A stretch of 40,810 nt of DNA from a virus: the UHGV virus genome UHGV-0096231, one strand, 5' to 3'. Shown in pieces: positions 6,713 through 40,260 of this stretch. Position 1 is the first letter of the stretch, and the number at the start of each line of letters is the position of its first letter. The notes under the pieces are model-generated. The model did not search any database. It was given only the letters and a program-made list of their open reading frames with translations, and was not told the origin of the DNA. The position numbers were made by a program, and so were the translations under genes.

Positions 6713-6716
6713 TCAC

Positions 6717-6742
6717 TCAGGGGCGTGGAACCGCGCCCCCTG
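6717..6742 (+). terminator. hairpin after the major capsid gene (partial terminator or RNA stabiliser)
   Basis: aggggcg-tggaacc-gcgcccct stem-loop directly after the capsid stop. No strong T-run follows. Confidence 0.3.
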
Positions 6743-6761
6743 TTCTGACGGGTGAAGAATC

Positions 6762-6962: not shown

Positions 6963-6964
6963 GT

Positions 6965-8176: not shown

Positions 8177-8733
8177 AACTGACGCCTGTTATTGCTGCGC
8201 TGCGTGCCCGCTGCCCGTATTTTGAAAACCGGGTGGCAGGCGCGGCACAGTTCAAAAATCTGCCGGAGGTCGGAAAGCTGAGACTCCCGGCGGCGTATGT
8301 GGTACCGGGTGATGACTCTCCGGGAGAAAACAAAAGCCAGACCGACTACTGGCAGGAGCTGAAAGAGGGCTTCTCCGTGGTTGTCATACTGAGTAACGGG
8401 CGTGATGAGCGCGGTCAGTTTGCCTCGTATGATGTGGTGGACGATGTCCGGCAGATGCTCTTTAAGGCCCTGCTGGGCTGGAACCCGGAAGCGTGCGGTA
8501 ACCCGATTACCTATGACGGCGGCACGCTGCTGGATCTGAATCGTCATGAGCTGATTTATCAGTTCGATTTTTCGGTCATCAGCGAGCTGACTGAAGACGA
8601 TACCCGCCAGCAGGATGATCTGAACAGTCTGGATGAACTGCAAACGCTGGCGATTGATGTTGATTATCTCGAGCCCGGTAACGGGCCTGACGGCGATATC
8701 GAACATCACACCGAAATAACCCTTCCTTCCTGA
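8173..8733 (+). CDS. tail completion / terminator-like protein
   Basis: 186 aa, ATGA-coupled. Precedes the sheath gene as in Mu-like tail modules. Confidence 0.45.
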   Translation: MKLTPVIAALRARCPYFENRVAGAAQFKNLPEVGKLRLPAAYVVPGDDSPGENKSQTDYWQELKEGFSVVVILSNGRDERGQFASYDVVDDVRQMLFKALLGWNPEACGNPITYDGGTLLDLNRHELIYQFDFSVISELTEDDTRQQDDLNSLDELQTLAIDVDYLEPGNGPDGDIEHHTEITLPS

Positions 8734-20639: not shown

Positions 20640-21509
<870 letters not shown>

Positions 21510-23250: not shown

Positions 23251-23284
23251 GAACACCTCCCGGCCTTTTAAGCCGGGAGTCAGC

Positions 23285-26238: not shown

Positions 26239-26733
26239 TCAGAAGTACGTCTTTTTCTGAAAGAATACGTGATAGGTAGCCACACCACACCTTTAGTGAC
26301 CCCTTAATCTGGTAATATAACAGCCCGTATGAATGTCCGCGGCATCGCGGGCTGAAATTTATTAAAAATACTTATTCATCAAGCTGGAGTAGTTTGCCGA
26401 GTAACTGTAAACGCCCAACTTAACCGGACCATTCACTTTTAGATTGCTACCAGCAAACCAACTTCCGTTTCTCGCTCATAACAGACATTAACTACAGTTA
26501 TGGTAGAAGGTATGCATACTGGGTGGGGAAAGTATGAAGGAAAAGAAGACTGCTGCGCAGTTTGTCGTCACATTTATCTTCATTGGCTATGCAAGTCATA
26601 ATACAAGGTGGGACAAAACTGAGACACATAAGGCCTCACAATGACTTGCAAGGCTTTACATGTTTTGATGTGGTGGGACGTGTGAGCGCAGTATTGATGG
26701 GGTAATACTTTGAATTAGAAGCGGATTCTTATA

Positions 26734-26779
26734 ATTCGTAATGCGAAGGTCGTAGGTTCGACTCCTATTATCGGCACCA
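26734..26779 (+). other. att core: 46 bp identical to the 3' end of tRNA-Thr(CGU) (thrW), not an intact tRNA
   Basis: ATTCGTAATGCGAAGGTCGTAGGTTCGACTCCTATTATCGGCACCA matches thrW from the anticodon loop (CGT) through the T-arm and acceptor 3' end. The 5' half of the tRNA is absent, so this is a duplicated attachment-site core. Confidence 0.8.
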
Positions 26780-26796
26780 TTCAAACATCTCCCCAA

Positions 26797-26944: not shown

Positions 26945-28159
26945 GTGAAACTCAATGCCCGTCAAATAGACACAGCCAAGCCAAAAGAGAAGGCTTACAA
27001 GCTGGCCGATGGTGGCGGTTTGTATCTCTTGGTAAAACCTAATGGAGGTAAATACTGGCGACTTAAATATCGTGTAGCTGGTAAAGAGAAGCTATTGGCA
27101 CTAGGTGTGTATCCTGAGGTTACTCTAGCCGATGCTCGGGCAAAACGTGAAGATGCGAAAAGAGGTATCGCTGGTGGTATCGATCCGATGGAAGCGAAAC
27201 GAGAGGAAAAGATTGCCCGGGAAACGCAGTTAAACAACACCTTCAAAGATATTGCCCTTGAGTGGCACAGCAGCAAATTAAAAAAATGGTCTGCTGGTTA
27301 TGCTTCAGACATCCTCGAAGCCTTCAACAAAGATGTGTTCCCTTACATTGGCAAAAAACCAATCGCCGAAATCAAACCACTTGAACTTCTGAATGTGCTG
27401 CGGCGCATCGAGGGGCGCGGTGCTACAGAAAAAGCCAAAAAAGTGAGGCAGCGGTGCGGGGAAGTTTTCCGCTATGCAATAGTCACTGGTCGCGCAGAGT
27501 ATAACCCTGCACCAGACCTTACTAGCGCGATGCAAGGCCATGAATCTAATCATTACCCTTTCCTTACAGCTAAAGAATTACCTGATTTTTTCAAGGCATT
27601 GTCCAGTTACTCAGGAAGCGCATTGGTTGTTATGGCGGCTCGTCTACTGATTATCACCGGCTTGCGGACTGGCGAACTACGTGGCGCATTATGGGATGAA
27701 ATTGATTTCAACAAGGCTATCTGGGAGATACCCGCTTCACGTATGAAAATGCGGCGGCCTCATATTGTGCCATTGTCTGATCAGGCTCTTTCGCTTATTG
27801 GGAAGATTAGAGAAATAACAGGCAATTACCCTCTTATGTTTCCCGGGCGCAATGATCCAAGGAAAACAATGAGTGAGGCCAGCATAAACCAAGTGTTTAA
27901 GCGCATTGGCTACGCTGGACGTGTAACTGGTCATGGGTTCCGGCACACTATGAGCACGATTTTGCATGAGCAGGGCTATAACACCGCGTGGATAGAAACG
28001 CAGCTCGCTCACGTTGATAAGAACTCAATTCGTGGCACATACAACCATGCGCAATATCTGGATGGAAGGCGGGAGATGCTTCAATGGTATGCCGACTATA
28101 TGGATTCTCTCGAGCATGGCGGAAATGTGGTGCATATGGTGTTTGAAAAACACGCATGA
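26945..28159 (+). CDS. tyrosine integrase (P4 family)
   Basis: 404 aa. N-terminus KLNARQIDTAKPKEKAYKLADGGGLYLLVKPNGGKYWRLKYR is the typical P4-type integrase arm-binding domain. C-terminal catalytic region with HGFRHT...Y. GTG start. Immediately downstream of the tRNA-derived att core. Confidence 0.9.
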   Translation: MKLNARQIDTAKPKEKAYKLADGGGLYLLVKPNGGKYWRLKYRVAGKEKLLALGVYPEVTLADARAKREDAKRGIAGGIDPMEAKREEKIARETQLNNTFKDIALEWHSSKLKKWSAGYASDILEAFNKDVFPYIGKKPIAEIKPLELLNVLRRIEGRGATEKAKKVRQRCGEVFRYAIVTGRAEYNPAPDLTSAMQGHESNHYPFLTAKELPDFFKALSSYSGSALVVMAARLLIITGLRTGELRGALWDEIDFNKAIWEIPASRMKMRRPHIVPLSDQALSLIGKIREITGNYPLMFPGRNDPRKTMSEASINQVFKRIGYAGRVTGHGFRHTMSTILHEQGYNTAWIETQLAHVDKNSIRGTYNHAQYLDGRREMLQWYADYMDSLEHGGNVVHMVFEKHA

Positions 28160-28429
28160 AACAACTGGACAAGTATACAGAGGTTTACTAAAGTATAGGG
28201 GAGTAGATTGATAAAAACTCACAGAGGATTGCTATTTAACAGTTAGCCCTGGAGAAGGGCAATCGCTCTTTTATAAACGAAGGTGTATTGAGCCTTCTAC
28301 GTCGCTGACAAAGCGGAATGTTCTTTAAAACTACTGGATGTCACGCCTAATAGCGTGATCCTGCCGAAATGCAGGGTAGCTCTACCCTTGTGGAGCAAAC
28401 AAACCAAAACAATCTGACTATCTTTTATA

Positions 28430-28464
28430 AAAGACCGCAATATGTTTTTCATATTGTGGTCTTT
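28430..28464. promoter_or_regulatory. 15-bp-stem hairpin / palindrome upstream of alpA
   Basis: aaagaccgcaatatg-ttttt-catattgtggtcttt, one mismatch in the stem. Candidate operator or terminator. Confidence 0.35.
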
Positions 28465-28550
28465 GGCGTATTCGACATTTGACGCAAATAAAACTCTCGC
28501 CATTCGTTGCAGGAGGGGGTTATTGCGTCATTAGTACAGGATATTAATAA

Positions 28551-28754
28551 ATGGCTAATTACAATTCATTAATTCGTCTCTCTGAAGTTCAAAGGCGAAC
28601 TGGTTATAGCAAAGCATGGATTTATCGTCTTATTAGTCAGGGGAGGTTCCCTAAACAGGTAAAAATTGGAAGTCGGGCAATTGCTTTTGTTGAGTCTGAA
28701 ATAGATGAATGGATTGAGAAGTGTATATTAGAATCTAGAGACGAGGTGGCCTGA
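28551..28754 (+). CDS. AlpA-family transcriptional regulator / excisionase
   Basis: 67 aa. LIRLSEVQRRTGYSKAWIYRLISQGRFPKQVKIGSRAIAFVESEIDEWI is the canonical AlpA helix-turn-helix pattern. Confidence 0.8.
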   Translation: MANYNSLIRLSEVQRRTGYSKAWIYRLISQGRFPKQVKIGSRAIAFVESEIDEWIEKCILESRDEVA

Positions 28755-29185
28755 TGGAAAAGAAAAACCGCCCATTACAGGCGGCTAATTCAGATATTCG
28801 TGTATCTGATGTTACGCCCCTTACAAAATCCCTTCAAGCACCAAAGCGCACACCGAAAAAGCATCGTGCCAGAGTCTATATGCTGCGTACTGGTATAGAG
28901 GGATGGACAGAAAATGACATTCTTCGCTACTGCCGTCTGTCTTCTGGTCGTAACTATGCAACAGAGTTAGAACGCCAGCTTGGAATCACTCTGGAGCGTA
29001 TCGACGAAAAGAATCCTGATGGTATCGGAACACACCTTCGCTACCGTTTCTCCTGCCGTGGTGATGTTCTGAAAGTGATCACTCATATTAACCATCTTGC
29101 GAACATAAATGATCACAACGGACTTTCTCAGCAGGAAATTGCCGACATTCTGAAACTCTACCCGGACGCGTTTAACGCCGCCTAA
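28754..29185 (+). CDS. hypothetical protein
   Basis: 143 aa, ATGA-coupled to alpA. Confidence 0.5.
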   Translation: MEKKNRPLQAANSDIRVSDVTPLTKSLQAPKRTPKKHRARVYMLRTGIEGWTENDILRYCRLSSGRNYATELERQLGITLERIDEKNPDGIGTHLRYRFSCRGDVLKVITHINHLANINDHNGLSQQEIADILKLYPDAFNAA

Positions 29186-29197
29186 CGGAGACTGAAA

Positions 29198-30031
29198 ATG
29201 AACATCGAAAAAAGCAGATTAATTTCTGAGGCTGCCCCTCATCTGAACGCCTCTCTGGGCACAATTAACGGTAATGAATTTGCCGCAATTGTCCCGGTTA
29301 TTCCTGGTCATATCGGTGGGCGTGAAACCAATATTGTTAGCGCAAAAGCGTTACACAAAGCGTTGGGCGTGGGAAAAGACTTCTCTACATGGATCACTGA
29401 TCGCATCTCTGAATATGACTTCACCATTGGGCACGATTACTCAGTCCATAAAACAATTTCCCCAAATTTGGGGAAAAGCCCGAATGGCGCGGCTTACAGC
29501 AAGATTAAGCAGTCTGGCAGACCCGGCAAAGACTATCTGTTAAGTGTCGGAATGGCGAAAGAACTGGCAATGATCGAACGCAATGATCAGGGTCGCGCTA
29601 TCCGTCGTTATTTCATCCAGTGCGAGGAAGAATTACAGCGTAGCGTGCCTGAAATCGCCGCCCGCTATCGTCGCCAGCTAAAAGCCCGTATTAGTGCCGC
29701 AAACAACTTTAAGCCAATGTGCGATGCGCTGAATATGGCCCGTGCCGAGCAGGGGAAAACGACGCAGCAACACCACTACACAAACGAGAGCAATATGATT
29801 TCTCGTATCGTTCTTGGTGGGCTAACTGCTAAGCAGTGGGCGCGGATAAATGGCTATTCTGGCGAACCTCGCGACCATATGAACGCAGAACAGCTTGAGC
29901 ACCTCTCATATCTCGAAAGCACCAATATCACGTTAATTGATATGGGCATGGAATATGAGCAGCGCAAAGGAGAACTCACCCGCCTGTCGCAACGCTGGCT
30001 CGCCAAGCGTCTGGAGGCGGTCCATGTTTAA
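29198..30031 (+). CDS. phage antirepressor-like protein (AntA / KilAC-type)
   Basis: 277 aa. The segment KDFSTWITDRI ... DYLLSVGMAKELAMIERNDQGRAIRRYFIQCEEEL resembles Ant-type antirepressor domains. Assignment from memory of the motif. Confidence 0.5.
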   Translation: MNIEKSRLISEAAPHLNASLGTINGNEFAAIVPVIPGHIGGRETNIVSAKALHKALGVGKDFSTWITDRISEYDFTIGHDYSVHKTISPNLGKSPNGAAYSKIKQSGRPGKDYLLSVGMAKELAMIERNDQGRAIRRYFIQCEEELQRSVPEIAARYRRQLKARISAANNFKPMCDALNMARAEQGKTTQQHHYTNESNMISRIVLGGLTAKQWARINGYSGEPRDHMNAEQLEHLSYLESTNITLIDMGMEYEQRKGELTRLSQRWLAKRLEAVHV

Positions 30032-30206
30032 GCCGACAGGAACACCACAACCTCAAAAACGCTACAAAGATGCCCACGGAGCACTCGTTACTGTCGAAAG
30101 CGTGTCTCACAACCGAGTGACGTTTTATCGCGACGGGTATCAATCGCCATGCGTACAACCGCTGGCACGTTTCATGAAGGAGTTCGCGGAGGTTAACAAA
30201 TGCTAA
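30027..30206 (+). CDS. small hypothetical protein
   Basis: 59 aa starting at an ATG that overlaps the ant stop (ATGTTTAA). Translational coupling suggests it is a real gene. Confidence 0.35.
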   Translation, partial: FKPTGTPQPQKRYKDAHGALVTVESVSHNRVTFYRDGYQSPCVQPLARFMKEFAEVNKC

Positions 30207-31267
30207 CCGCCCAGAAGAAGATATTTTCACTGGCTGGTATGTCGCCAAAATCCAGCAATATGACAGCAAAGTCAGACATTAATACAGCAGATACAAGCAA
30301 AGTTTATCATTTGCTGGTGGTCGGAACGGATGCCTTAACCATACCAGAAATCTCGGGCGATGATATTAGCATTGAGAAGGTCAGCGGCTGCGCCAGAAAA
30401 TTTCTGGTCGTAGATGATGTCTTCAGCTCGTGTAGTGACTCCACAAAAACATTCGTCCACGCGCGTGACGTTAACGAAATGAGCGCGATGTACTGTGCTT
30501 CTGGTTCTTCCAATAGTGAGTTTTCGGAGTCCATAAAAAAGAGCTTGCCGTTATGCGGCAACACGGTTTATGGTTATAAGGCACCTCATAAAACGGGTGC
30601 CGGGATTGGCGTCCTGGTAAATCGAATGGCGACATATGACGCGCCGAGCGTCTTTTTTTATGTCGTAGGTCTGACTCACCCATTTTTTGGGCGTTGGTGT
30701 ATAATCCAGCGCCTTTGTCAATCAATGGTGGCTCAGGCAGGGGCTTCTTCGGAAGCGCCGGTATCCATTCGAGCCGGTTACGCCAACCCTGTCTGGGCTA
30801 CCACCAGCGAAATTGGCGTTTCCGGTGGTAGCGTTACATGCTATCGAATGGAGGCTGCCACATGCTGGCTACTACCCCTACCCAAAAACCGCAATTTATC
30901 TGGATTATCGCCGCAGTTCGCCGCGATTGCCCGACAATTACCGCCAAAATTCATCATATTGCTGCCGAGTCTGAACGCGATGCTCGCCGTTCTCTGGTGC
31001 GCGATCACATCTGCTTTTTTGCTGGTCGTATCCGCATGGAGGTGGCACATGATTAAAACCTACGATGTGCATATGGATCCCCTCGAACGCACAAGCCAGA
31101 TCATCACACTGACAGAAGTGATTAACGATATTCTGGTGAGCAACTCTCCCTCACGAGACGAAAAACTGAAGGCGTTACTCGCGATATTGGACCTCGCCGT
31201 TCGTGACGTTCATTTCCTGCTGGAAGGTGGACAAATGCCATGCAAAACGGGGGCAACCAATGAATAA
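30200..31267 (+). CDS. hypothetical protein; ORF boundary anomalous (the in-frame read-through to 31267 is probably not one gene)
   Basis: The start is coupled to the upstream stop (ATGCTAA). The frame has no stop until 31267, yet the region 30862-31056 shows better codon usage in another frame. Possible frameshift or fusion. Confidence 0.3.
30862..31056 (+). CDS. small hypothetical protein
   Basis: 64 aa from the ATG at 30862 with GGAGG RBS. Codon usage (ctg, ccg, cgc, atc, acc) is more host-like than the overlapping frame. Confidence 0.45.
   Translation: MLATTPTQKPQFIWIIAAVRRDCPTITAKIHHIAAESERDARRSLVRDHICFFAGRIRMEVAHD
31049..31267 (+). CDS. small hypothetical protein
   Basis: 72 aa. ATG overlaps the previous stop (ATGATTAA). 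Confidence 0.4.
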   Translation: MIKTYDVHMDPLERTSQIITLTEVINDILVSNSPSRDEKLKALLAILDLAVRDVHFLLEGGQMPCKTGATNE

Positions 31268-31454
31268 CTCAATTAATACCCCTCGCCTTACGTCCGCACT
31301 TCAATTAATCGAGCAAGCAGCGGCTGTCCCGGTTGCTGTCAGTCTTTCGGCTGAAGAAATGGACGCTGCTGATGTCGTGGATGCGATTAAAGCGTGCTCA
31401 TCTTTGGTTAACGATGCCCGTGCCGAGCTGGTAATTCTTGGGGGTGAAAAATGA
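31260..31454 (+). CDS. small hypothetical protein
   Basis: 64 aa. ATG overlaps the previous stop (ATGAATAA). Confidence 0.4.
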   Translation: MNNSINTPRLTSALQLIEQAAAVPVAVSLSAEEMDAADVVDAIKACSSLVNDARAELVILGGEK

Positions 31455-31714
31455 ATATCACCTTAATTTATCGTCATCCGTGTGAGCTGGAAATTGAATC
31501 ATTGCTGGGGCGCGAAGAGCCATATCCAGACACATTCACTCCCGCAGATTGCGCGACTGAACGGCTTACCAGAGCGCGCACAGGTCTGGTTCATGTGATG
31601 AATGAGATTGTTCCCTCGGTGGGAGGGGAACAGGCGACAGTAATCAATAGCTGGCTACAAAAAGTTACCTCCCTGATAGATATCGGTTTAATCGATGTGG
31701 AGAGTGCGAAATGA
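31451..31714 (+). CDS. small hypothetical protein
   Basis: 87 aa, ATGA-coupled. Confidence 0.4.
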   Translation: MNITLIYRHPCELEIESLLGREEPYPDTFTPADCATERLTRARTGLVHVMNEIVPSVGGEQATVINSWLQKVTSLIDIGLIDVESAK

Positions 31715-31932
31715 CCAACATCCAGCTCATTGAAGCGCAATGTCGCATCGAACAGGTTCAGACTGTTTTAGGGTTCTGGCTTGAAGGGGCCAGCCCCTGC
31801 AACAGAGACAAGTTAATGATTGGCGCGGTTATGTCACTGCTCAATGGCGTACCAGAAGCTATTCAGGAAGCGGACGAATTGTTGGGCAAATATGAGTTAC
31901 AGAATCATTCAGGCGAGGCGAAACATGAATAA
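31711..31932 (+). CDS. small hypothetical protein
   Basis: 73 aa, ATGA-coupled. Confidence 0.4.
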   Translation: MTNIQLIEAQCRIEQVQTVLGFWLEGASPCNRDKLMIGAVMSLLNGVPEAIQEADELLGKYELQNHSGEAKHE

Positions 31933-32527
31933 TTTCTTAACTTTCCATGCAGAAGCAACGCCTGACGGCGTAAACATCATGTACCGCAGCAACGATGGCA
32001 TGACAGAACGCGTTGATACCGTCTCATATATTGATGCCGTAAATCGTCTGGATGCCGGGGATTATGACGATAAACCAGATGAAGGCATGTTTATACATCT
32101 CGCTATTGCCAGTGGCGGCAACCAGGGATATTTCGATTACACATCACAGCATCACGTGATTATGTGGCGCTGGCTGATAGCAACAGCATTCATCAATGAA
32201 ATGAGAAAGGAAAACGGCACCGTCAGCATTATTGATGACAGTGGCAATCATTCCGTGGTTTCTGTTTATTCCAATGGCATCGTCGCCATGCCGCTGTATC
32301 CAGTAGCAGAGCGCCTCGCTATGGCAAACAACATTGAGGGCGCAATGATCGAGAAATATGGTGTTGATGTCGGAACAAAGAATGCCATCATTTTTTACAG
32401 CAACATGTTCGATGTCGAACAGGGAACACTCACTTCGTTTGGGCGAGAAGTGCTTGCCGATCTTCACAACAGCTTTATTGCCGAACTAAACGAAAACGGC
32501 ATCCCAGAAGCACCAGTGACGCACTAA
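31925..32527 (+). CDS. hypothetical protein
   Basis: About 200 aa from the ATG at 31925, which overlaps the previous stop. Directly precedes the primase gene. Confidence 0.5.
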   Translation: MNNFLTFHAEATPDGVNIMYRSNDGMTERVDTVSYIDAVNRLDAGDYDDKPDEGMFIHLAIASGGNQGYFDYTSQHHVIMWRWLIATAFINEMRKENGTVSIIDDSGNHSVVSVYSNGIVAMPLYPVAERLAMANNIEGAMIEKYGVDVGTKNAIIFYSNMFDVEQGTLTSFGREVLADLHNSFIAELNENGIPEAPVTH

Positions 32528-32539: not shown

Positions 32540-34891
32540 ATGCGAAACATTGATCTTATCCGTCAGGTTATCAGTGCGTCTGAAAACAACTGGCCTCATG
32601 TGCTGGGCTGCCTGAACATAAATGTCCCTGACTCTCCGCGCCGTCATGCTCCCTGCCCTGCATGTGGGGGCAAAGATCGATTCCGGTTCGATGACAACGG
32701 GCGCGGTAGCTTCATCTGTAATCAGTGCGGCGCTGGTGATGGGCTGGATTTAATTAAACGCGTAAATAACTGCGACACAACAGAGGCGGCGCTTCTTGCC
32801 GCTGATGTTCTGGGTATTGATTACCGGACAACGGAAACACCAGAAGCCACCAGCCAGAAACGGGAACAACTGGAAACCGAGCGCCAGCGACGCGAACAGG
32901 AGCGCCTGAAAAGGGCAGAGAAGGACGAACAACAAAGACGGGATACGTTTTCCCGTCAGTTTGATGACATGCGCAGAAAGGCTGTAAACGGCAAATCTGA
33001 TTATCTGGTTGCGAAAGGGGTAGGTGATTTTACATTCCCCGTGTTGCCCGATGGATCTCTGTTGCTGGCGCTGGTGGATAAATCCGGCGCAGTCACAGCA
33101 GCACAGACTATTACCTCACATGGTGAAAAAAGACTCCTGACAGGTTCGGCAAAGCGGGGGGCATATCACGCCATAAACGCACAGAAACGACCTCACAGCA
33201 TCATAATTGCTGAGGGGGTGGCTACCGCCCTGTCGTGCCATTTAATTCGCCCTGACGCAATGACAGTGGCAGCAATCGACGCTGGCAACCTGTTGCCAGT
33301 AGCGGAAGTCATGCGCAGAACATATCCGCAGGCACAAATAATCATTGCCGCAGATAACGATCACCAGCAAGGAGACTCAGAAAGTGGAGGGATCAACACG
33401 GGGAAAGATGCCGCAGAGAGGGCCGCTATTTCCGTAGCTGGCAGGGTGTCTCTGCCACCGACTGACTATAAAGCCGACTGGAACGACTATCACCAACAAC
33501 ACGGGCTGGCGGCAGCCACAGCAGCATTTAAAGATTCGATGTACCAGCCACGGGGGAAAGGGGCGCAGGTGAAAAATCACAAACAGTCAGTCGGGGCGCT
33601 GAATGAGATCAGTTCTGGCGAGGTGTTAAGCGATGATGAAATTGCTGTCCTCGAAGAAATCAACCGGACGTTTACGCATGTCACCATCGGCGGGAAACAC
33701 AAGGTGGTGTCGCTAAAGCCTTCTCAAACCGGCGGTGTATCGCACGTTTTCGAGGATTTATCACAATTTCAGCATTATTTTCATCATAAACCGAGAGTCG
33801 CCAGAAAGCTGGCGGGATCGGCGTGGCTGTCATGGAGTGGGAAGAACTACAAGCCAGGAGGCGTAGGATTTTATCCAGTACCAGACAAATGCCCTGACGA
33901 TGTTTTTAATCTGTATGAGGGGCTGGCACTGGAACCAATTGAAGGAGATTGCACGGTATACCTTAATCACCTGTTGCAGGTTGTCTGTGCCGGTAATGAA
34001 GAGGCATACCAATATCTTATCCAGTGGATGGCGCACATTATCCAAAAGCCTGATGAAAAACCGTCCGTGGCAATCGTGATGAAATCTGTCCCGGGCACAG
34101 GGAAAGGCACAACGGTTAAACCGCTGCTGCAAATACTGGGGCAGTACGCCGCCCACATTAACGGGGCGGGACATATTTCAGGGCGCTTCAATTCAATACT
34201 TGCTAACAAGCTACTGGTATTTGCTGACGAAGTGACGATCCACAAGCCGTCTGAAGCTGACAGACTTAAAGCGATTATTAGCGAACCGACGTTTAACCTT
34301 GAGCGCAAGGGAATTGATGCTGAACCAATGCCGAATTTTGCCCGGTTGATATTTGCCAGTAACAGCACACAGGTATTACAGGCAGGGATAAGAGAGCGTC
34401 GCTATCTCGTGCTTGAGCCATCTCCTGAAAAAGCACAGAGCCGGGAGTATTTTGATCGGCTGTACAGTTGGCTTAATGATGGCGGTGCCGCAAAGTTGCT
34501 TTGGCATCTTAAAGGGGTGGATCTCTCAGGTTTTGACCCTCAACGAGCGCCACAGACCGATGCCTTACGTGAAGAAATCTTGCTGGGGCTGTCTGGCGTT
34601 GAATTGTTTCTTTATGGCGAGCTAATCAATGAACCTCCGTTTAATGGCGAAGTCCGTTTGTTTGCAAAGGATATGGTTAGTCGGTTTGTAGCGTGGTCGC
34701 TTGAGCGTGGGGAAAAGCTTAAAGAACCAGCTGCCAGATCACTACTGGGTAAATCACTTGCACAAATGGGGCTGGTGAAGCATGGAAGACCAGACCGAGG
34801 GAATGGCGTGTTCTACGAACTACCAGAGGTCGGAGTTCTACAGGCTGCGTTTGCCCGTCTGATCGGTATGGGGGGTTATGATGTTTTTTAA
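32540..34891 (+). CDS. P4 alpha-like primase-helicase (zinc-binding / toprim primase + D5-type helicase)
   Basis: 783 aa. N-terminal Cys cluster CPACGGKDRFRF...FICNQCGAGDG (zinc-binding primase domain), a toprim-like middle region (IIIAEGVATALS, AADND), and a C-terminal P-loop-like VPGTGKGTT. Confidence 0.85.
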   Translation: MRNIDLIRQVISASENNWPHVLGCLNINVPDSPRRHAPCPACGGKDRFRFDDNGRGSFICNQCGAGDGLDLIKRVNNCDTTEAALLAADVLGIDYRTTETPEATSQKREQLETERQRREQERLKRAEKDEQQRRDTFSRQFDDMRRKAVNGKSDYLVAKGVGDFTFPVLPDGSLLLALVDKSGAVTAAQTITSHGEKRLLTGSAKRGAYHAINAQKRPHSIIIAEGVATALSCHLIRPDAMTVAAIDAGNLLPVAEVMRRTYPQAQIIIAADNDHQQGDSESGGINTGKDAAERAAISVAGRVSLPPTDYKADWNDYHQQHGLAAATAAFKDSMYQPRGKGAQVKNHKQSVGALNEISSGEVLSDDEIAVLEEINRTFTHVTIGGKHKVVSLKPSQTGGVSHVFEDLSQFQHYFHHKPRVARKLAGSAWLSWSGKNYKPGGVGFYPVPDKCPDDVFNLYEGLALEPIEGDCTVYLNHLLQVVCAGNEEAYQYLIQWMAHIIQKPDEKPSVAIVMKSVPGTGKGTTVKPLLQILGQYAAHINGAGHISGRFNSILANKLLVFADEVTIHKPSEADRLKAIISEPTFNLERKGIDAEPMPNFARLIFASNSTQVLQAGIRERRYLVLEPSPEKAQSREYFDRLYSWLNDGGAAKLLWHLKGVDLSGFDPQRAPQTDALREEILLGLSGVELFLYGELINEPPFNGEVRLFAKDMVSRFVAWSLERGEKLKEPAARSLLGKSLAQMGLVKHGRPDRGNGVFYELPEVGVLQAAFARLIGMGGYDVF

Positions 34892-34920
34892 TATAGTCTT
34901 TTTACAAGAAGATCGTTTTT

Positions 34921-35026
34921 ACCTGTACCACCTATACCACTTTGCTAATTCAGCATTAAAAACAATGTGTTATAGTGGTACAGGTCAATATCTTACCTAT
35001 ACCAGACCTGTACCACCTATACCATT
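34921..35026. repeat. iteron cluster 1 (ACCTGTACC / GGTACAGGT family)
   Basis: cctgtaccacctatacca occurs twice as a direct repeat (34922-34939 and 35007-35024), with an inverted copy tggtacaggtc between. Immediately downstream of the primase gene. Confidence 0.6.
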
Positions 35027-35067
35027 AACAAACGCATTTCTTCTGGCTGGCTGAGAGGGAACAACCA

Positions 35068-35298
35068 ATGATGAGCGCACCATTTTACAAAGTGCGCCAG
35101 TTAGCTTCTTCCTCTGGCTGGCAGCTACGGTTTGAGGGGCGTTCAGACTGGCTACCCATTGCGGCATGGGCGAATGTTGAAATGTGTATTGACGGCGATA
35201 CCGTTGAAATCATTATTCCCTGCGTGGCAAGTCGGGACGGCTGTATAGAGCCAACAGATATGGCAGCAGAAATCAGAGAGGTAAAACATGAGCAATAA
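35068..35298 (+). CDS. hypothetical protein
   Basis: 76-aa ORF between the two iteron clusters. Confidence 0.4.
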   Translation: MMSAPFYKVRQLASSSGWQLRFEGRSDWLPIAAWANVEMCIDGDTVEIIIPCVASRDGCIEPTDMAAEIREVKHEQ

Positions 35299-36025
35299 CT
35301 ATTGCATACCGCAGGGAATGACCAGAACGGAGCGCGAAGAATTAAAAAGTTTCGCTACACAGTGCGGGAATGCTGGCGACATCCAAAGTCTGGAACGCAC
35401 TTTAATTATGATTGCGCACTGGATGCGTCAGGGGCAAAGGGTTTCATTTACTGAATATGCCAGCCAGTGGACAGAGGCACAGCGCGAACGGAGCGACGGT
35501 AATCACTCAACACCCGAAATGGCGAAGCAATGGCCTTTCAGTGGTAAACGCTGTATCAGTCCCGGTGGTTCAGATTATTACCCTGCTGGTGTGGGAGATG
35601 AGCCATGTTGTGACGAGACTGAAATCCGCCACGCAGTGACAGTAATTACCGCTGAATACCCACAATTTAACCTTGACGGACTGGCGCTCCACAACCGGAA
35701 TGCGGACTGGGAAAACCCGCTTGATAACCCGTCATTTATCGTATCGGCGAAAAGCTGCCTGAGATGGATCAGAGACAACGGGATGAGTAATGCCCAGATT
35801 GAGAGCTTCCCGCAGGATAACCCCACATCTGACACGTTGAAGCATGAAGTGGAGCGATATAACCAGATAAACCACCAGCACAGTGATCACCCGCACTATA
35901 TCCCCAACGGAGCATTTATTGCGGCGATGGTGGCAAGCGGCTACAAGGTTAAGCCAGCGGGAAGAATGAACGCATTTTTCAATATTTCAAAAAAGGGATT
36001 ATGTGCTGCTATGGGTAAAAATTAA
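35288..36025 (+). CDS. hypothetical protein
   Basis: 245-aa ORF overlapping the previous gene. Confidence 0.5.
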   Translation: MSNNYCIPQGMTRTEREELKSFATQCGNAGDIQSLERTLIMIAHWMRQGQRVSFTEYASQWTEAQRERSDGNHSTPEMAKQWPFSGKRCISPGGSDYYPAGVGDEPCCDETEIRHAVTVITAEYPQFNLDGLALHNRNADWENPLDNPSFIVSAKSCLRWIRDNGMSNAQIESFPQDNPTSDTLKHEVERYNQINHQHSDHPHYIPNGAFIAAMVASGYKVKPAGRMNAFFNISKKGLCAAMGKN

Positions 36026-36030
36026 ATAAA

Positions 36031-36134
36031 TGGTACAGGTCTGTACAGGTGGGGAGAGGTCATTTTTACCCACCTGTACCACCTGCAGGCCGCGTCACAC
36101 AAGGGTTTGTGACATGGTGGTACAGGTGGTACAG
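36031..36134. repeat. iteron cluster 2 (GGTACAGGT family) with central palindrome
   Basis: tggtacaggtctgtacaggtgg, cacctgtaccacctg and tggtggtacaggtggtacag are copies of the same motif as cluster 1. A gtcacac...tgtgac palindrome lies at 36094-36113. Confidence 0.6.
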
Positions 36135-36499
36135 CAAAAACAGCGATTTTCTTTATAAGGTATGTTTTGCTCATCTGGCAGACGGAGGTATTCGCTGCGG
36201 TTTGGCACATAGCCCAGAACAGCAAAGAGTTTTACGAGACTTTTGTAAAATCCAGTGTACAAGGGCGTGACGTTTTTGAAGGAGAGACCTACGAAATTTT
36301 CGTAGTTCAAAAAATAGCCTCTGAGATGTTGTTATGCCTGTTCAGCAAACCATCCGCATAGCTGATCGCGAATCAAATTACCAATGGAGCCAGAAGCAAG
36401 GGCAGAACTGGAAAGCGCCTGCCGTGAAGAGTAATGCGACATCGTAAATATAGTTTTTAGAGTCCATAAAAAACCTGTCAAAACCTGACATACAGAACG

Positions 36500-36533
36500 A
36501 TGCCACCAGCTACTGAGCGGTGGCATTTTTTTG
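36500..36533 (+). terminator. Rho-independent terminator
   Basis: atgccacc-agctactgagc-ggtggcat followed by TTTTTTT. Confidence 0.6.
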
Positions 36534-36627
36534 TGCTATTTGTTTCATATTTTGCAATCACAATGATGAATATTGCGTTTTATGAAACTATAATGACTGT
36601 TGTTTTATACAGTTCTAAGGGGGCGTT

Positions 36628-36786
36628 ATGGCTATTTCAGTAAAGCCGGTATTGATAAGTGAGAAGCAAATGGAAGCGATAAAGAAAATTCAGGAGGAGC
36701 AGCGTAAAAAATCAGAGGTAGGAGTTGCGCCAACGATCCACGAAATTGCTCGGGGATTAATGGATAAGGCGCTGGCTTACACTTTA
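36628..36786 (+). CDS. small hypothetical protein (52 aa), first gene of the unknown operon
   Basis: ATG with AAGGGGG RBS. Encodes MAISVKPVLISEKQMEAIKKIQEEQRKKSEVGVAPTIHEIARGLMDKALAYL. Not in the ORF track because it is under 60 aa. Possibly a small DNA-binding or regulatory protein. Confidence 0.35.
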
Positions 36787-36793
36787 ACTGGAC

Positions 36794-38155
36794 GTGGGTA
36801 AATCAATGGCTACGTGGAAACAGGGTATTAATTCTGGTGGTTTTCTGGCTGGCATTGGTGCGCAAAATGAGAATGCGCCAAAGGCAAGCGACATTAACGC
36901 AACGCTTGGTCTGATCCGCGAAAACAATGAACTGGCTCGATCAGGTGCAAATAACGTTGCTCTGACAGGCCTTCGTGGTCTGGCTGGAGTTGCTGACATT
37001 TATAAGCAGGAACAGCAACAGAAAGCGATTAGTGCGTTCAATAAGGTTCATGCTGATGCATGGGCTTCTGGTGATCCATCGGGACTATTTAAGTTTGCCC
37101 AGGAAAATCCAGCGTTTGTTGCACAGGCACAACAGGCATTTTCCGGTCTTAATGAGCAGCAACGCAACGATATGGGCGATTTAGCCATGAGGGCTAACGT
37201 CGCTCTTTCTCAGGGACCGGAAGCCTACAGTAAATTCATTACTGACAACAAGGACAGGTTAAATCGCGTTGGTGCTAATGCTGACTGGATGATTCAGACA
37301 GGTATCCAGAATCCAGAGCAGCTATCACACATGCTGACTACTATGTCTCTCGGTGCGCTTGGACCAGAAAAGGCGTTTGCTGTTCAGGATAAGATGGTTG
37401 GTCGCCAGCAGGAGCAGCAAAGAATTAACGAAACCATTCGCAATAATGACATGACGAATGCGAGGGCTATTAGGGGTCAGGATCTTTCCTATAAGGCTCA
37501 AATGGCAAGACTGAATCACGACAAGTATGTGTTTAAGCAGTCACAGGCGGCCCTTGAAAGAGCAGGACAACTTCAGGATATGGATGTTTTGTCTCTTAAC
37601 TCACAGATAGCAGCGACGGGAATTGATCCGCTAACCGGTAAAGCTGCAACGTCAGCCAGAATGTCTCAGGCTAAGAGATGGCTTGATGGCAACAATAATT
37701 ACAACAATGCGTTAATTACTGGTGAGCGAGGGATAGAGAAAATTGATTCTTTGCTTGGTAAGAAGGAGCTTGAAGGTATTGGTCGCTTCGAAGGAAGAAA
37801 TATAGATGGCTTCACAAGTGCTGAAGGGCTTGCAAACCGTAATGCGATAGAAGAATTAAAGTCGGGTGCGTTTGTCCAGAACGTGCAGACTATGCGAGGT
37901 ATGGGTAGCCTCTCCAATGCTGAAGGCCAAAAACTGGAAAACCTGATCGCGAAACTCGATATAACACAGCCTGAAGAGGTCGTCAGAAAACAGTTATCTG
38001 AAATCCGATCGCAATATTCTGTATTTCAAAAGGTTGCAGCAAGGGAGGCTGAATCAATGGGATATAGTTCATCAGGTTATGACACATATGTTAGTGAGCG
38101 AAAATCAGGAAGCGACAGCAATAAGTCCGGTTTCTCGTCTTTATGGGGTGATTAA
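36794..38155 (+). CDS. hypothetical protein (453 aa), Gln/Ala/Asn-rich, predicted coiled-coil
   Basis: Long ORF with no recognisable catalytic motif. The start may be the GTG at the track coordinate or the ATG four codons later. The stop overlaps the next start (TAATG). Confidence 0.6.
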
Positions 38156-40260
38156 TGGCTAAAGCATGGAAAGATGTTATCGCTTCTCCACAGTATCAGG
38201 CGTTAGCACTAGAACAAAAAGCGCAGGCTCAGGAGCAATACTTCAATGAAGTCGTGGCCCCGCAAGCCGGAGAAAGTGTAGAGCAGGCTAAGCAGGCTTT
38301 TTATGCTGCCTATCCACTACCATCAACGAATGAAATAGACCGATCCCAATCAGCAACTCAAAATATTCAACATACATCATCTGATAATTCTCTTGCGTCA
38401 GGGTATGCAAAGTTAGCTACTCAGCAAAGAGAGGGGCTTGAGCGTTCAGCAGAACAGGGAGCCAGTCTTGGGGCTGCGATGCGCGATGCTATAACAGGCG
38501 AAAGCCGAATGACTCCAGAGATGGAGAGACTGCAAAATGTCGCCTCTGCCCCAGAATTGAACTCACTAAGCATGGATGCCCTAAAGGCTGGATGGTCTCA
38601 ACTTTTCGGCTCTGACGCGTCTCAGGAAAAGATTCTTCAGGGAATGGGGGCGACATTAAGGCAGGATGAGAAGGGGAATACTATCGTTTCTCTGCCATCA
38701 GGTGATTATGCCCTAAACAAGCCGGGTTTATCACCGCAAGACCTGACTTCGTTTCTTGCTAATGCGTTGGCGTTTACACCAGCGGGCAGGGCTGGAACGG
38801 TGCTTGGTGCCATAGGAAAATCAGCAGCTACAGATTTAGCACTACAGGGAGCCACCAGCCTTGCTGGTGGAGAAGATATTGATCCGTTACAAACGGTAAT
38901 TTCTGCTGGCATTGGTGGTATTGGTAAGGGGCTGGAAAATACAGCGAGTGCGGTTTCGAGGGCTGTTCGTGGTGATATGTCGCCTGAAGCAAAGGCTGCT
39001 GTCGACTTTGCATCGGAAAGAAATCTGCCGTTAATGACCAGTGACATGCTGAAAGATAAAACCTTTATGCAGAGTCAGGCTCAGACATTAGGCGAAAGAG
39101 TTCCTTTTTTTGGAACCGGTAAGAACCGACTGAATCAACAACAAGCACGAGAAAATTTAGTCAGAACATTTAGCGATGGTCTGGGGGGAATTTCAGATAA
39201 ACAGCTTTATGAATCTGCGACTAAAGGGCAGCAAAAATTCATTGAGGCAGCAGGAAAGCGATATAACCGCATAATTGACGCTATGGGGGATACCCCTGTC
39301 GATCTCTCAAACACGGTAAAAGCTATCGACAATCAGATTGCCGTGTTAAGCCGACCGGGCAAATCTCAGGATAGAGCCGCGGTAAAAGTCTTGCAGCAAT
39401 TTAAAGACGATATCACCAGCGGACCCAATGACCTGCGTCTGGCGAGAGAAAACAGAACTGACCTTCGAAAGCGGTTCATGAATTCAAACGAGACTGTTGA
39501 TAAAGACACGCTCCAGAAAGCCAGCGATATTGTCTACAAGGCATATACAGCGGATATGAAAAAAGCAGTATCCCAAAAACTAGGCTCAGAAGAAGCTACC
39601 AATATGTCTAGGGTTGATCGCTCATGGGCTAGATTCAATGACATGATGGGAAGAACGCGCGTTCAAAAGGCAATAGCCAGCGGCAAGGCCACGCCTGAGG
39701 ATGTAACAAAACTCGTTTTTAGCCAAAACCCATCAGAACGTTCTCAGCTTTACAGGCTTCTGGATGACAATGGTAGGCAAAACGCACGAGCCGCCATAGT
39801 TCAGAATGCTGTAGATAAGGCGACTGATCCGTCTGGAAATATCAGTGTTGAGAAGTTTATTAATGCGTTACACCGGAACAGAAAGCAATCCGCAACGTTC
39901 TTTAAGGGCGTGCACGGAAAGGAACTGGACGGCATTATTAAATACCTCAACGATACCAGACAGGCGGCAAAGGTTGACGGTCAGAAATTAAACAGCCAGA
40001 AACTTTATGGCCTGCTGGTTGGTGGAGGCGCTATAAATGCGGCAGTTCTGGCGGGGATGCTGAAAACGGCTGCGTTTGTTGTTCCTGCTGCAGGTGCCGT
40101 AGGCGGAGCAGCGAAGGCATACGAAAGCCCTGTTATACGAAATGCCTTGTTACGTCTGGCAAATACGCCAAAAGGTAGCACAGCATATGACAGAGCGATC
40201 AGTACGGTCACACAATCACTGACCACAGCAGCACAAGCATCGCAAAAGGAAGCTCAATAA
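38155..40260 (+). CDS. hypothetical protein (701 aa) with C-terminal hydrophobic helical hairpin
   Basis: Long, largely helical Q/A-rich protein. The C-terminal LYGLLVGGGAINAAVLAGMLKTAAFVVPAAGAVGGAAKAY (about nt 40003-40125) is a glycine-zipper-like membrane hairpin. No P-loop or nuclease motif seen. Confidence 0.6.
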   Translation: MAKAWKDVIASPQYQALALEQKAQAQEQYFNEVVAPQAGESVEQAKQAFYAAYPLPSTNEIDRSQSATQNIQHTSSDNSLASGYAKLATQQREGLERSAEQGASLGAAMRDAITGESRMTPEMERLQNVASAPELNSLSMDALKAGWSQLFGSDASQEKILQGMGATLRQDEKGNTIVSLPSGDYALNKPGLSPQDLTSFLANALAFTPAGRAGTVLGAIGKSAATDLALQGATSLAGGEDIDPLQTVISAGIGGIGKGLENTASAVSRAVRGDMSPEAKAAVDFASERNLPLMTSDMLKDKTFMQSQAQTLGERVPFFGTGKNRLNQQQARENLVRTFSDGLGGISDKQLYESATKGQQKFIEAAGKRYNRIIDAMGDTPVDLSNTVKAIDNQIAVLSRPGKSQDRAAVKVLQQFKDDITSGPNDLRLARENRTDLRKRFMNSNETVDKDTLQKASDIVYKAYTADMKKAVSQKLGSEEATNMSRVDRSWARFNDMMGRTRVQKAIASGKATPEDVTKLVFSQNPSERSQLYRLLDDNGRQNARAAIVQNAVDKATDPSGNISVEKFINALHRNRKQSATFFKGVHGKELDGIIKYLNDTRQAAKVDGQKLNSQKLYGLLVGGGAINAAVLAGMLKTAAFVVPAAGAVGGAAKAYESPVIRNALLRLANTPKGSTAYDRAISTVTQSLTTAAQASQKEAQ

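What the first reader, a model, noticed from the sequence alone, without database searches (positions are those of the whole stretch)
34921..36134. Two iteron clusters (GGTACAGGT family) flanking a 76-aa / 245-aa gene pair downstream of the primase
Multiple direct and inverted copies of ACCTGTACC/GGTACAGGT occur in two clusters about 1.1 kb apart, immediately downstream of the alpha-like primase. In P4 the alpha protein binds iterons in ori and in a second cis replication region (crr), so these are probably the origin and a crr-like site. The genes enclosed by them are uncharacterised.
Basis: partly seen in the sequence, partly recalled or inferred. Interest (0 to 1): 0.5.

Follow-up and report, generated by a model that had tools for sequence, protein, structure and literature searches.

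The report
Satellite replication origin split by genes
The two repeat clusters are most likely the two mirror-image halves of the replication origin of a phage-satellite island (a Gram-negative PICI), a known kind of origin that here has been pulled about 1 kb apart by two inserted genes of unknown function.

Summary
GGTACAGGT occurs 6 times in 40.8 kb (0.17 expected), always in two ~105-bp clusters starting 30 bp after the primase-helicase stop codon.

The island has int, AlpA, an AntA/Ash zone with C4/isrK RNAs, a primase and captured phage late genes. That is Gram-negative PICI organisation, and such islands are known to carry an iteron origin just downstream of pri.

- **Same layout as a tested origin.** The site layout (<< > <<< | >> < >>) matches the experimentally validated EcCICFT073 ori.
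- **Halves contiguous in relatives.** In Hafnia, Rahnella and others the two halves lie within ~240 bp. Deleting window 35027-36021 in silico restores an origin 84% identical to Hafnia's.
- **Iteron follows the helicase.** CTGTACC-type repeats follow most helicases at ≥42% identity from Enterobacterales to Methylococcales, with or without the 76-aa gene. A sibling island with a swapped helicase/C-terminal domain has a different iteron.
- **C-terminus.** It models as a winged helix.

The P4 "ori plus crr" reading is only partly right. There is no distant second site, the octamer differs, and kinship to P4's origin-binding domain is only generic.

The embedded 76-aa gene is a conserved orphan; the 245-aa gene's position varies. 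This is a new variant of a known kind, of moderate interest.

The parts
32540..34891 (+). Primase-helicase gene (783 aa): Zn-ribbon primase domain, Toprim, DUF5906-type SF3 helicase core, C-terminal winged helix.
   Evidence: Pfam gives Zn_Ribbon_Prim 34-69, Toprim_3 221-322 and DUF5906 515-614. PHROG calls it a DNA primase. The helicase core matches the NrS-1 primase-helicase 6k9c. Only the N-terminal 337 aa resemble P4 alpha.
34412..34888 (+). Coding region for primase aa 625-783, the modelled C-terminal domain. It is the proposed iteron-binding winged helix (core about aa 686-760).
34921..35024 (.). Left half of the origin (cluster 1). Sites ACCTGTACC 34921, ACCTATACC 34930, then a 72-73% A+T spacer (~34940-34976, the proposed melting region), then GGTACAGGT 34977 (inverted), ACCTATACC 34995, ACCTGTACC 35006 and ACCTATACC 35015.
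   Evidence: Spacer A+T is 0.72-0.73 against 0.52 locally. After subtracting 12 bp, site offsets from the stop codon (31, 40, 86, 105, 116, 125) match Hafnia's (19, 28, 75, 94, 105, 114) to within 1 bp. The site order matches the validated EcCICFT073 ori.
35027..36021 (+). Segment of about 1 kb inserted between the two origin halves. It carries the p76 leader, p76 and p245. Boundaries are approximate (± a few bp).
   Evidence: Removing 35027-36021 gives the best alignment to the contiguous Hafnia origin: 185/221 = 83.7% identity, against 66% for the last 300 bp of the helicase gene.
35068..35298 (+). p76, a 76-aa orphan protein conserved between the two origin halves in E. coli, Buttiauxella and Xenorhabdus, and found after the left half in Pantoea.
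   Evidence: tblastn finds it ~175 bp after the primase stop in L006-L013. There are 16 invariant residues across 43-84% identity, and dN/dS is 0.05-0.29. No Pfam, PHROG or PADLOC family matches. Only 10 representative clusters exist among 1.84 billion proteins. The AF2 model is all-beta but low confidence (pLDDT 64.8), and the fold search is not significant.
35288..36025 (+). p245, a 245-aa protein of unknown function. It overlaps p76 by 11 nt, and its position relative to cluster 2 is not conserved.
   Evidence: It lies inside the clusters in the window and Buttiauxella L007, after cluster 2 in Xenorhabdus L010/L011, and is absent in L006, L009 and L012. A 65%-identical homologue lies right after a different origin and RepA-type helicase in L003. 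dN/dS is about 0.1. No family or PDB sequence match was found.
36032..36136 (.). Right half of the origin (cluster 2), an inverted image of the left half. Sites GGTACAGGT 36032, TGTACAGGT 36042, ACCTGTACC 36072 (inverted), then a G+C-rich spacer with box GGCCGCGTCA (36088-36097) and palindrome GTCACA/TGTGAC (36094-36113), then GGTACAGGT 36119 and GGTACAGCA 36128.
   Evidence: rc(cluster 1) aligns better to cluster 2 than the direct orientation does, in four taxa. Spacer A+T is 0.39. The same >> < >> layout occurs in Hafnia, Rahnella, EcCICFT073 and EcCIRM13514.
26945..28754 (+). Context that classifies the island: a P4-type tyrosine integrase (26945-28159) and an AlpA regulator (28551-28754).
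   Evidence: Pfam gives Arm-DNA-bind_3 / Phage_int_M / Phage_integrase and Phage_AlpA at E = 7e-20.

Best explanation
The two clusters together are the replication origin of a Gram-negative phage-inducible chromosomal island (PICI-type satellite). The origin is recognised by the island's own primase-helicase.

The ancestral origin is a single ~230-bp element immediately 3' of the helicase gene. It is built from two mirror-image halves, each with 5-6 copies of a 9-bp iteron (core CTGTACC) in both orientations.
- The left half encloses an A+T-rich spacer, the proposed melting site.
- The right half encloses a G+C-rich spacer.

In the lineage that includes this window, a small gene (p76), and here also p245, has been inserted at the junction. 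The halves now lie 0.3-1.0 kb apart.

Proposed mechanism (inferred, not shown): the C-terminal winged-helix domain of the SF3-type primase-helicase binds the iterons. Oppositely oriented arrays position helicase assemblies head-to-head. DNA melts at the A+T-rich spacer, and the N-terminal Zn-ribbon/Toprim primase primes synthesis. The separated halves would cooperate by DNA looping.

p76 lies in the primase transcription unit downstream of the left half. It is therefore well placed to be a replication accessory or regulator, or simply cargo.
For: **Enrichment and position.**

**Natural module swap.** Sibling island L005 matches the window up to 33561 (including the primase N-domain) and again from 36226. 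The swapped block is the helicase, the C-terminal domain, both clusters and the gene pair. L005 instead has a DUF927 helicase and a different iteron set (GTTGGTTCA x3, A+T spacer, TTGAACCAAC x3) and no p76/p245.

**Iteron tracks helicase similarity over 52 loci.** At ≥42% identity most loci have CTGTACC or one-base variants within 450 bp of the stop codon, and these are rare in the ~10 kb of flanks. At 28-38% identity other repeats occupy the same position.

**Iterons persist without p76.** L021-L025, L026, L030, L031, L034, L036 and L038 have the iterons but no p76. In L023-L025 both halves lie within ~240 bp.

**Shared site layout.** The layout is the same in EcCICFT073, whose pri-ori drives plasmid replication and whose ori deletion abolishes it (PMC6092414), and in EcCIRM13514.

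**In-silico excision.** Removing 35027-36021 restores 84% identity to the contiguous Hafnia origin.

**C-terminal domain.** It is a confident winged helix.

**Island class.** The island has PICI hallmarks: int, AlpA, C4/isrK, pri and a late zone (PMC10111431).

**Module is maintained.** It occurs in 140 of 5426 E. coli genomes (114 at ≥99% identity) and at two or more attachment sites.
Against: - No binding or replication experiment exists for this allele.
- EcCICFT073 and EcCIRM13514 Pri-Rep have no BLASTP similarity to this primase, so transferring the experimental result rests on shared Pfam domains (only the DUF5906 core) and on shared origin layout.
- In E. coli only the left half has an A+T-rich spacer, so the right half may have a different role.
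- Some relatives have one decayed half (L006 right half, L010 left half). This means either that one half can suffice or that those copies are dead.
- A few close loci (L028, L029, L032) show no clear CTGTACC array.
- The direction of the event (insertion rather than repeated loss) rests on parsimony only.
Confidence: 0.75

Rival explanations
1. P4-style two-site system. Cluster 1 is the true origin and cluster 2 is a functionally distinct second cis site, either required like crr or acting in copy control/handcuffing like P1 incA.
For: Both clusters carry the same iteron, as P4 ori and crr do. In E. coli only cluster 1 has an A+T-rich spacer (0.72 against 0.39). The primase N-domain is homologous to P4 alpha. 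P4 crr also lies directly 3' of alpha.
Against: In relatives, and in the validated EcCICFT073 ori, the two halves form one contiguous ~230-bp unit with the same asymmetry (A+T-rich left spacer, G+C-rich right spacer). The asymmetry is therefore a feature of a single origin, not of two loci. No third or distant site exists in the island. The octamer and C-terminal domain type differ from P4.
Confidence: 0.12
2. The split origin is a relic. Insertion of p76/p245 inactivated the origin, and the island is now replicated only passively.
For: Separation of the halves by 0.3-1 kb is unusual. Some relatives show decay of one half (L006, L010). H56 shows that primase-deleted derivatives persist.
Against: Both halves keep intact iterons, spacing and orientation across E. 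coli, Buttiauxella and several Xenorhabdus species, even though the helicase C-terminal half is only 61-67% identical. The primase ORF is intact. The module is near-identical in over 100 E. coli genomes and sits at two or more attachment sites.
Confidence: 0.08
3. The repeats are operators for a regulator encoded between them (p76 or p245). This would parallel iteron plasmids such as P1 or F, where iteron sets flank the initiator gene.
For: p76 always co-occurs with the split arrangement and lies between the arrays.
Against: The same iteron arrays occur after homologous helicases in many genera that lack p76 and p245. A 65%-identical p245 homologue sits beside a completely different iteron, AAAGTGAGG, in L003. 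p245 lies outside the arrays in Xenorhabdus. p76 has no recognisable DNA-binding motif, although its model is weak.
Confidence: 0.03
4. The clusters are terminal inverted repeats of a small mobile cassette carrying p76/p245.
For: The outer arms 34917-34940 / 36117-36140 are 88% complementary over 24 nt, and the clusters are inverted images of each other.
Against: The inverted halves exist adjacent to each other with nothing between them in many relatives, always at a fixed offset from the helicase stop codon. There is no transposase and no target duplication. p245 lies outside the repeats in Xenorhabdus. All E. coli genome hits that contain the clusters also contain the primase 3' end.
Confidence: 0.02

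Closest known systems
Gram-negative PICI pri(-rep)-ori module, e.g. EcCICFT073 (Fillol-Salom et al. 2018, PMC6092414)
   Same: The island organisation matches: int, AlpA, Bro/Ash zone with C4/isrK, primase, origin, late zone. The origin lies immediately 3' of pri, with sets of short iterons in both orientations around an A+T-rich region. The site order and offsets are the same (<< > <<< | >> < >>), and the right spacer even shares a G+C-rich box. PICIs at the yicC-dinD site are already catalogued (EcCIRM13514).
   Different: The primase is a different allele: Zn-ribbon + Toprim + DUF5906 with a non-Pox_D5 winged helix, and no BLASTP similarity. The iteron is different (CCTGTACC against CTGTCTACC). 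The two halves are separated by ~1 kb of coding DNA, which I did not find described.
Satellite phage P4 alpha protein with ori and crr
   Same: A multifunctional primase-SF3 helicase with a C-terminal winged-helix DNA-binding domain. A short iteron is used in both orientations. A cis site with two ~110-120-bp repeat units lies directly 3' of the gene. The N-terminal primase domain is homologous.
SaPI (staphylococcal PICI) rep-ori
   Same: The origin is adjacent to the 3' end of the pri-rep genes, with iterons flanking an A+T-rich region, and specificity is matched between Rep and ori (as cited in PMC6092414; details from my own knowledge).
   Different: Different host phylum, different proteins and iterons, and no genes embedded in the origin.
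SF3-helicase viral origins (SV40 large T antigen, papillomavirus E1)
   Same: Inverted arrays of short binding sites next to an A+T-rich element load two helicase assemblies head-to-head. The helicase here is SF3-type (the DUF5906 core; PPV_E1_C appears weakly in a sibling allele). This comparison rests on general knowledge, not on a test.
   Different: Eukaryotic viral systems with an unrelated origin-binding domain. The analogy is mechanistic only.

Membership tests
Gram-negative PICI origin (pri-ori module) | The element has PICI organisation: integrase, AlpA regulator and primase, all co-oriented, in a 10-20 kb island. | tested here: met
   int 26945-28159, AlpA 28551-28754 (Phage_AlpA, E = 7e-20) and primase 32540-34891 are all on the + strand. 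The island is about 16 kb in L001, between yicC and dinD. C4/isrK RNAs lie in the Ash zone, as described for PICIs (PMC10111431).
Gram-negative PICI origin (pri-ori module) | The origin lies immediately downstream of the pri gene. | tested here: met
   The first iteron starts 30 bp after the stop codon. The same holds for most of the 35 relatives at ≥42% identity.
Gram-negative PICI origin (pri-ori module) | Two sets of iterons flank an A+T-rich region. | tested here: met
   The left half has sites at 34921/34930, a 72-73% A+T spacer, then sites at 34977-35023. The overall layout matches EcCICFT073.
Gram-negative PICI origin (pri-ori module) | The pri + ori fragment supports autonomous replication, and deleting the ori abolishes it. 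| not testable with these tools
   Shown only for EcCICFT073 (PMC6092414), which carries a different Pri-Rep allele.
Gram-negative PICI origin (pri-ori module) | The origin is a compact, contiguous non-coding element. | tested here: not met
   The halves are separated by ~995 bp that encode p76 and p245. They are contiguous in L023-L025, L086 and L087.
P4 ori/crr system | An alpha-type protein with primase, D5_N, SF3 helicase and a Pox_D5-type origin-binding domain. | tested here: inconclusive
P4 ori/crr system | Type-1 octamer TGTTCACC. | tested here: not met
   The iteron here is CCTGTACC(A). P4's octamers were read from X51522.
P4 ori/crr system | Two separate cis loci (ori and crr) several kb apart. 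| tested here: not met
   There is only one locus. No other CTGTACC cluster exists in the whole island, and the halves are contiguous in relatives.
Iteron plasmid replicon with control locus (P1 incC-repA-incA type) | The gene flanked by the iteron sets encodes the iteron-binding initiator. | tested here: not met
   Iteron arrays persist in many loci without p76 or p245. p245 pairs with a different iteron in L003.
Transposable cassette with terminal inverted repeats | A transposase, target-site duplication, and occurrence at unlinked sites. | tested here: not met
   There is no transposase domain. The repeats always follow the helicase gene. No empty or unlinked copies were seen.

The most novel reading that the evidence does not exclude
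The split origin is fully functional. The primase-helicase bridges two half-origins 0.3-1 kb apart by looping. The embedded orphan p76, transcribed through the left half, is a new origin-coupled replication regulator (functionally comparable to P4 Cnr) or a helper-phage interference factor whose expression reports origin occupancy. A second unexplained element, the G+C-rich box (A)GCCGCG(C/T)CA in the right spacer, is shared between Pri-Rep alleles with different iterons. It could be a common priming or host-factor site.
Probability: 0.2. Interest if true: 0.55.

Novelty: new variant of a known kind. Interest (0 to 1): 0.35.

Why it matters
**Annotation.** The result places an unannotated repeat region, present in about 2.6% of complete E. 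coli genomes, as the origin of a PICI-type satellite. It also defines the iteron (core CTGTACC) for a very widespread helicase clade found from Enterobacterales to Methylococcales and Alteromonadales. That helps when annotating satellites and when predicting replicon specificity or incompatibility.

**A natural experiment.** The split form shows that the two halves of this origin type tolerate 0.3-1 kb of separation, if the split origin is functional. This gives a handle on how SF3 primase-helicases assemble at bipartite origins.

**Candidates for follow-up.** It also flags a conserved orphan gene sitting inside an origin.

None of this overturns current understanding. The class of element and its origin design are already described.

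Tried and rejected
- **H56 (strain FMU073332).** It looked like a recombinant joining another primase to the same C-terminus. It is simply the same island with an internal primase deletion, so it is not informative.
- **The 75-bp stretch at 36226-36300.** It is conserved in hundreds of genomes, but it is only the start of the late region shared with sibling islands, not part of the origin.
- **Rfam.** It finds nothing in 34.9-36.2 kb; only C4 and isrK, elsewhere in the island.
- **Promoter and terminator scans of 34700-36850.** Neither class exceeds shuffled expectation. No terminator lies between the primase and p76.
- **p76 and p245 function.** There are no Pfam, PADLOC or PDB-sequence matches, and only one weak PHROG hit. 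The p76 AF2 model is too weak (pLDDT 64.8), and its Foldseek hits are not significant (best E = 0.38). Faint PC4/Pur-alpha-like hits were not taken as evidence.
- **Printed iteron sequences.** A search of the Fillol-Salom supplement found none; the figures are not held.
- **Spacer hairpins.** Several right or left spacers contain small palindromes, but their sequences and stabilities are not consistent across taxa, so I make no claim about them.

Full report
**1. Observation**

The 9-mer GGTACAGGT/ACCTGTACC occurs six times in the 40.8-kb window, all between 34921 and 36127. Dinucleotide-preserving shuffles give 0.17 on average, and none of 100 reaches six. With one mismatch allowed, 11 of the 18 window hits lie in the same two clusters.

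- Cluster 1 (34921-35024) starts 30 bp after the stop codon of a 783-aa primase-helicase ORF (32540-34891).
- Cluster 2 (36032-36136) starts 7 bp after the stop codon of a 245-aa ORF.
- ORFs of 76 aa (35068-35298) and 245 aa (35288-36025) lie between the clusters and overlap by 11 nt.
- Tandem sites are 9-11 bp apart.
- Cluster 2 is an inverted image of cluster 1. The reverse complement of cluster 1 aligns to cluster 2 with score 95, against 66 in direct orientation. The same holds in Buttiauxella (88 against 49) and in two Xenorhabdus species (126 against 72; 124 against 63).

**2. What the surrounding element is**

From 26945 onward the window carries the following:
- a P4-type tyrosine integrase;
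- an AlpA regulator (28551-28754, Pfam Phage_AlpA, E = 7e-20);
- AntA and Ash proteins, with a C4 antisense RNA and an isrK RNA inside the Ash region;
- the primase;
- genes resembling P22 ejection proteins.

The same island lies between yicC and dinD in E. coli 2016C-3878. In ETEC H10407 it lies at another site, beside a prophage, as in this window. The origin region is present in 140 of 5426 complete E. coli genomes, 114 of them at ≥99% identity.

This organisation is that of Gram-negative phage-inducible chromosomal islands (PICIs). PICIs at yicC-dinD are already catalogued (EcCIRM13514). The Bro/Ash zone with C4/isrK, a replication zone with primase/DUF5906 and an origin, and a late zone of captured phage genes are all described in PMC10111431. 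Fillol-Salom et al. [quoted passage not shown] They also showed that the EcCICFT073 pri-ori segment drives plasmid replication, and that deleting the ori abolishes it.

**3. Evidence that the repeats belong to the primase-helicase**

(a) Natural module swap. A sibling island in E. coli NGF1 (L005) matches the window over 27215-32525 (94.6%) and 32540-33561 (87.5%, the primase N-terminal domain). It matches again only from 36226 onward. The replaced block is therefore the helicase and C-terminal part of the primase, both clusters, and the gene pair. L005 instead has a DUF927 helicase followed by a different, compact site: GTTGGTTCA three times, a ~40-bp A+T-rich spacer, then TTGAACCAAC three times. 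It has no p76 or p245.

(b) Survey of relatives. I examined 52 of the 80 loci retrieved as encoding relatives of the helicase/C-terminal half.
- At ≥42% identity most loci carry CTGTACC or single-base variants (CTATACC, CTGTTCC, CTGTACA) within 450 bp of the stop codon. The remaining ~10 kb of each locus usually holds 0-3 copies, six at most.
- These hosts range from Enterobacterales to Methylobacter, Methylomonas, Colwellia and Alteromonadaceae.
- At 28-38% identity the same position holds other repeats, such as GGTCATA x11, CCTAGAC x11 and CTTGGAC x8.

(c) The 245-aa protein does not follow the iteron. In an unrelated island (L003) a 65%-identical p245 homologue sits right after a RepA-type helicase whose intergenic iterons are AAAAGTGAGG.

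Binding of this domain to the iterons is an inference.

**4. The two clusters are halves of one origin**

Offsets of sites from the helicase stop codon, where `<` is CTGTACC-type on the + strand, `>` is its complement, and brackets mark imperfect copies:

| Origin | Left half | Right half |
|---|---|---|
| Hafnia L025 | <19 (28 >75 (94 (105 (114 | )139 >148 <179 >225 )234 |
| Rahnella L023 | <19 <28 >75 (94 (105 (114 | >148 <179 >225 |
| EcCICFT073 (core CTGTCTACC, experimentally validated ori) | <14 <23 >72 <91 (102 (111 | )145 )156 (175 )212 )224 )233 |
| EcCIRM13514 (core TGTTCACC) | <14 <24 >67 (87 (99 <107 | >142 >151 >162 <183 >227 )235 |
| Window | <31 (40 >86 (105 <116 (125 | >1141 )1151 <1182 >1228 )1237 |

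After subtracting 12 bp, the window's left half matches Hafnia's positions to within 1 bp. The right half resumes after an extra ~1 kb.

Deleting window 35027-36021 in silico gives the best alignment to the contiguous Hafnia origin, with 185 of 221 aligned positions identical (83.7%). The last 300 bp of the helicase genes are only 66% identical.

The left spacer is A+T-rich in all origins examined (0.59-0.86). The right spacer is G+C-rich in the E. coli, Hafnia, Buttiauxella and EcCICFT073 origins (A+T 0.34-0.50). The left/right asymmetry seen in the window is therefore a property of the single ancestral origin. No further CTGTACC cluster exists anywhere in the island.

**5. The enclosed genes**

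A p76 homologue follows the primase at a constant ~175 bp in Pantoea, Buttiauxella and six Xenorhabdus genomes, where the helicase half is 81-61% identical. It is not detected in more distant relatives.

In Xenorhabdus the two halves flank p76 alone. Where p245 is present there, it lies after the right half (L010, L011). In the window and in Buttiauxella L007 it lies inside. So p76 is the conserved occupant of the gap, and p245 is mobile relative to it.

Both genes evolve under purifying selection (dN/dS 0.05-0.29 for p76 and ~0.1 for p245). Neither has any Pfam or PADLOC match or any significant PDB-sequence match; the only PHROG hit is a weak one for p245. p76 is an orphan, with 10 representative clusters among 1.84 billion proteins. 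Its model is all-beta but unreliable.

The contiguous form is phylogenetically wide, and the split form is confined to the ≥60% identity clade. The nearest outgroups (L014-L016) lack p76. A single insertion is therefore the most parsimonious history. This is inference.

**6. Mechanism proposed**

Shown:
- position, enrichment and mirror architecture of the sites;
- co-variation of the iteron with the helicase/C-terminal module;
- the same site layout as a validated PICI origin;
- a winged-helix C-terminus.

Inferred:
- the winged helix binds the 9-bp sites;
- the inverted arrays orient two SF3 helicase assemblies toward each other, as at SV40 and papillomavirus origins (general knowledge);
- melting starts in the A+T-rich left spacer;
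- the Zn-ribbon/Toprim domain primes;
- in the split form the halves communicate by looping.

No terminator-like site separates the primase from p76. p76 is therefore probably co-transcribed through the left half, which would couple its expression to origin occupancy. This last point is speculative.

**7. Comparison with P4**

P4's own record places crr directly 3' of alpha, as two 120-bp direct repeats each holding five octamers in both orientations. Its ori lies 4.5 kb away.

So the system works like P4's in outline, but it is not a member of the ori/crr system. By contrast, EcCIRM13514 has a Pox_D5-type C-terminus and uses exactly P4's octamer TGTTCACC. That fits the rule that iteron type follows the type of C-terminal domain.

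**8. Rivals**

- Operators of p76 or p245: contradicted by iteron arrays without those genes, and by p245 pairing with another iteron.
- Transposon-like terminal repeats: contradicted by the adjacent halves in relatives, the fixed position after the helicase gene, and the absence of a transposase.
- Dead relic: not excluded. It is disfavoured because both halves are conserved across genera and the module is widespread.
- Distinct control site (crr-like or incA-like) for the right half: remains possible as a refinement.

**9. Verdict**

The feature is real. It is best explained as the cognate origin of a PICI-type satellite's primase-helicase. It is a new allele, and a split variant, of an already described origin design. 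Interest is moderate: the class is known, but the split origin with an embedded conserved orphan gene is a tidy natural experiment.

Noticed in passing
L087 (E. coli RM13514, NZ_CP006027.1) 8066-8290: The catalogued PICI EcCIRM13514 uses exactly P4's type-1 octamer TGTTCACC in its origin. Its Pri-Rep has the same Pox_D5-type C-terminal domain as P4 alpha, but lacks the Zn-ribbon/Toprim primase part.
   Followed up: partly
window 36088-36097; L086 ~7180-7205; L025 ~6480-6500: A G+C-rich box, (A)GCCGCG(C/T)CA, sits in the right-half spacer. It is shared by origins with different iterons and unrelated Pri-Rep alleles (window, Hafnia, L024, Buttiauxella, EcCICFT073), but is absent in Xenorhabdus and EcCIRM13514. 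It might be a priming or host-factor site; it remains unexplained.
   Followed up: partly
window 36794-40260 (also L005 9581-14749): The island's late zone encodes homologues of P22-type DNA ejection/injectosome proteins (Inj_translocase, and a PHROG DNA transfer protein/transglycosylase). It encodes no capsid or packaging genes. This suggests a satellite that supplies its own ejection proteins to a P22-like helper.
   Followed up: no
window 33561/33562 and 36225/36226 against L005: There are sharp recombination breakpoints. The helicase, C-terminal domain and origin are exchanged as one cassette between sibling islands, while the primase N-terminal domain stays constant. The primase gene is therefore itself a mosaic.
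   Followed up: yes
L003 (E. coli 'numer 3') 6678-7654: A 65%-identical homologue of p245 lies immediately after the iteron origin of an unrelated RepA-type (AAA_25) helicase in another PICI-like island, followed by ssb, ProQ/FinO and perC. p245 therefore seems to favour the position just downstream of satellite origins, whatever the replicon type.
   Followed up: partly
window 35038-35051 and 35109-35122: A 14-nt direct repeat, TTC(T/C)TCTGGCTGGC, occurs once just upstream of the p76 ribosome-binding site and once inside p76 (codons for the invariant Gly-Trp). A similar pair occurs in Buttiauxella L007, and an inverted CCAGCCAG copy upstream in Xenorhabdus.
   Followed up: no
window 30581-30808: isrK (67 bits) and C4 antisense RNA (79.5 bits) lie inside the 355-aa Ash-family ORF. 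This is P4-type RNA immunity in a PICI-organised island.
   Followed up: no
window 21775-24499: A Dcm-type C5 cytosine methylase and an EcoRII restriction endonuclease (convergent genes), plus a GIY-YIG protein at 20640-21464, lie between a myovirus-like prophage late region (1-20 kb) and the island. ETEC H10407 has the same neighbourhood without the restriction-modification pair.
   Followed up: partly
window ~26730-26780: A tRNA 3'-end-like sequence (...GGTTCGACTCCTATTATCGGCACCA) lies just upstream of the island's integrase, although ARAGORN finds no complete tRNA. From memory it matches the 3' part of tRNA-Thr thrW, i.e. an attachment-site remnant. The same replication module occurs with a different integrase at yicC-dinD.
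   Followed up: partly
L010 (Xenorhabdus ehlersii) 6296-6400; L006 (Pantoea stewartii) 6729-6800: These are natural half-origin variants. L010 has lost most of the left half, including the A+T-rich spacer, but keeps an intact right half. L006 keeps the left half but has only degenerate CCTGATAC copies where the right half should be.
   Followed up: partly
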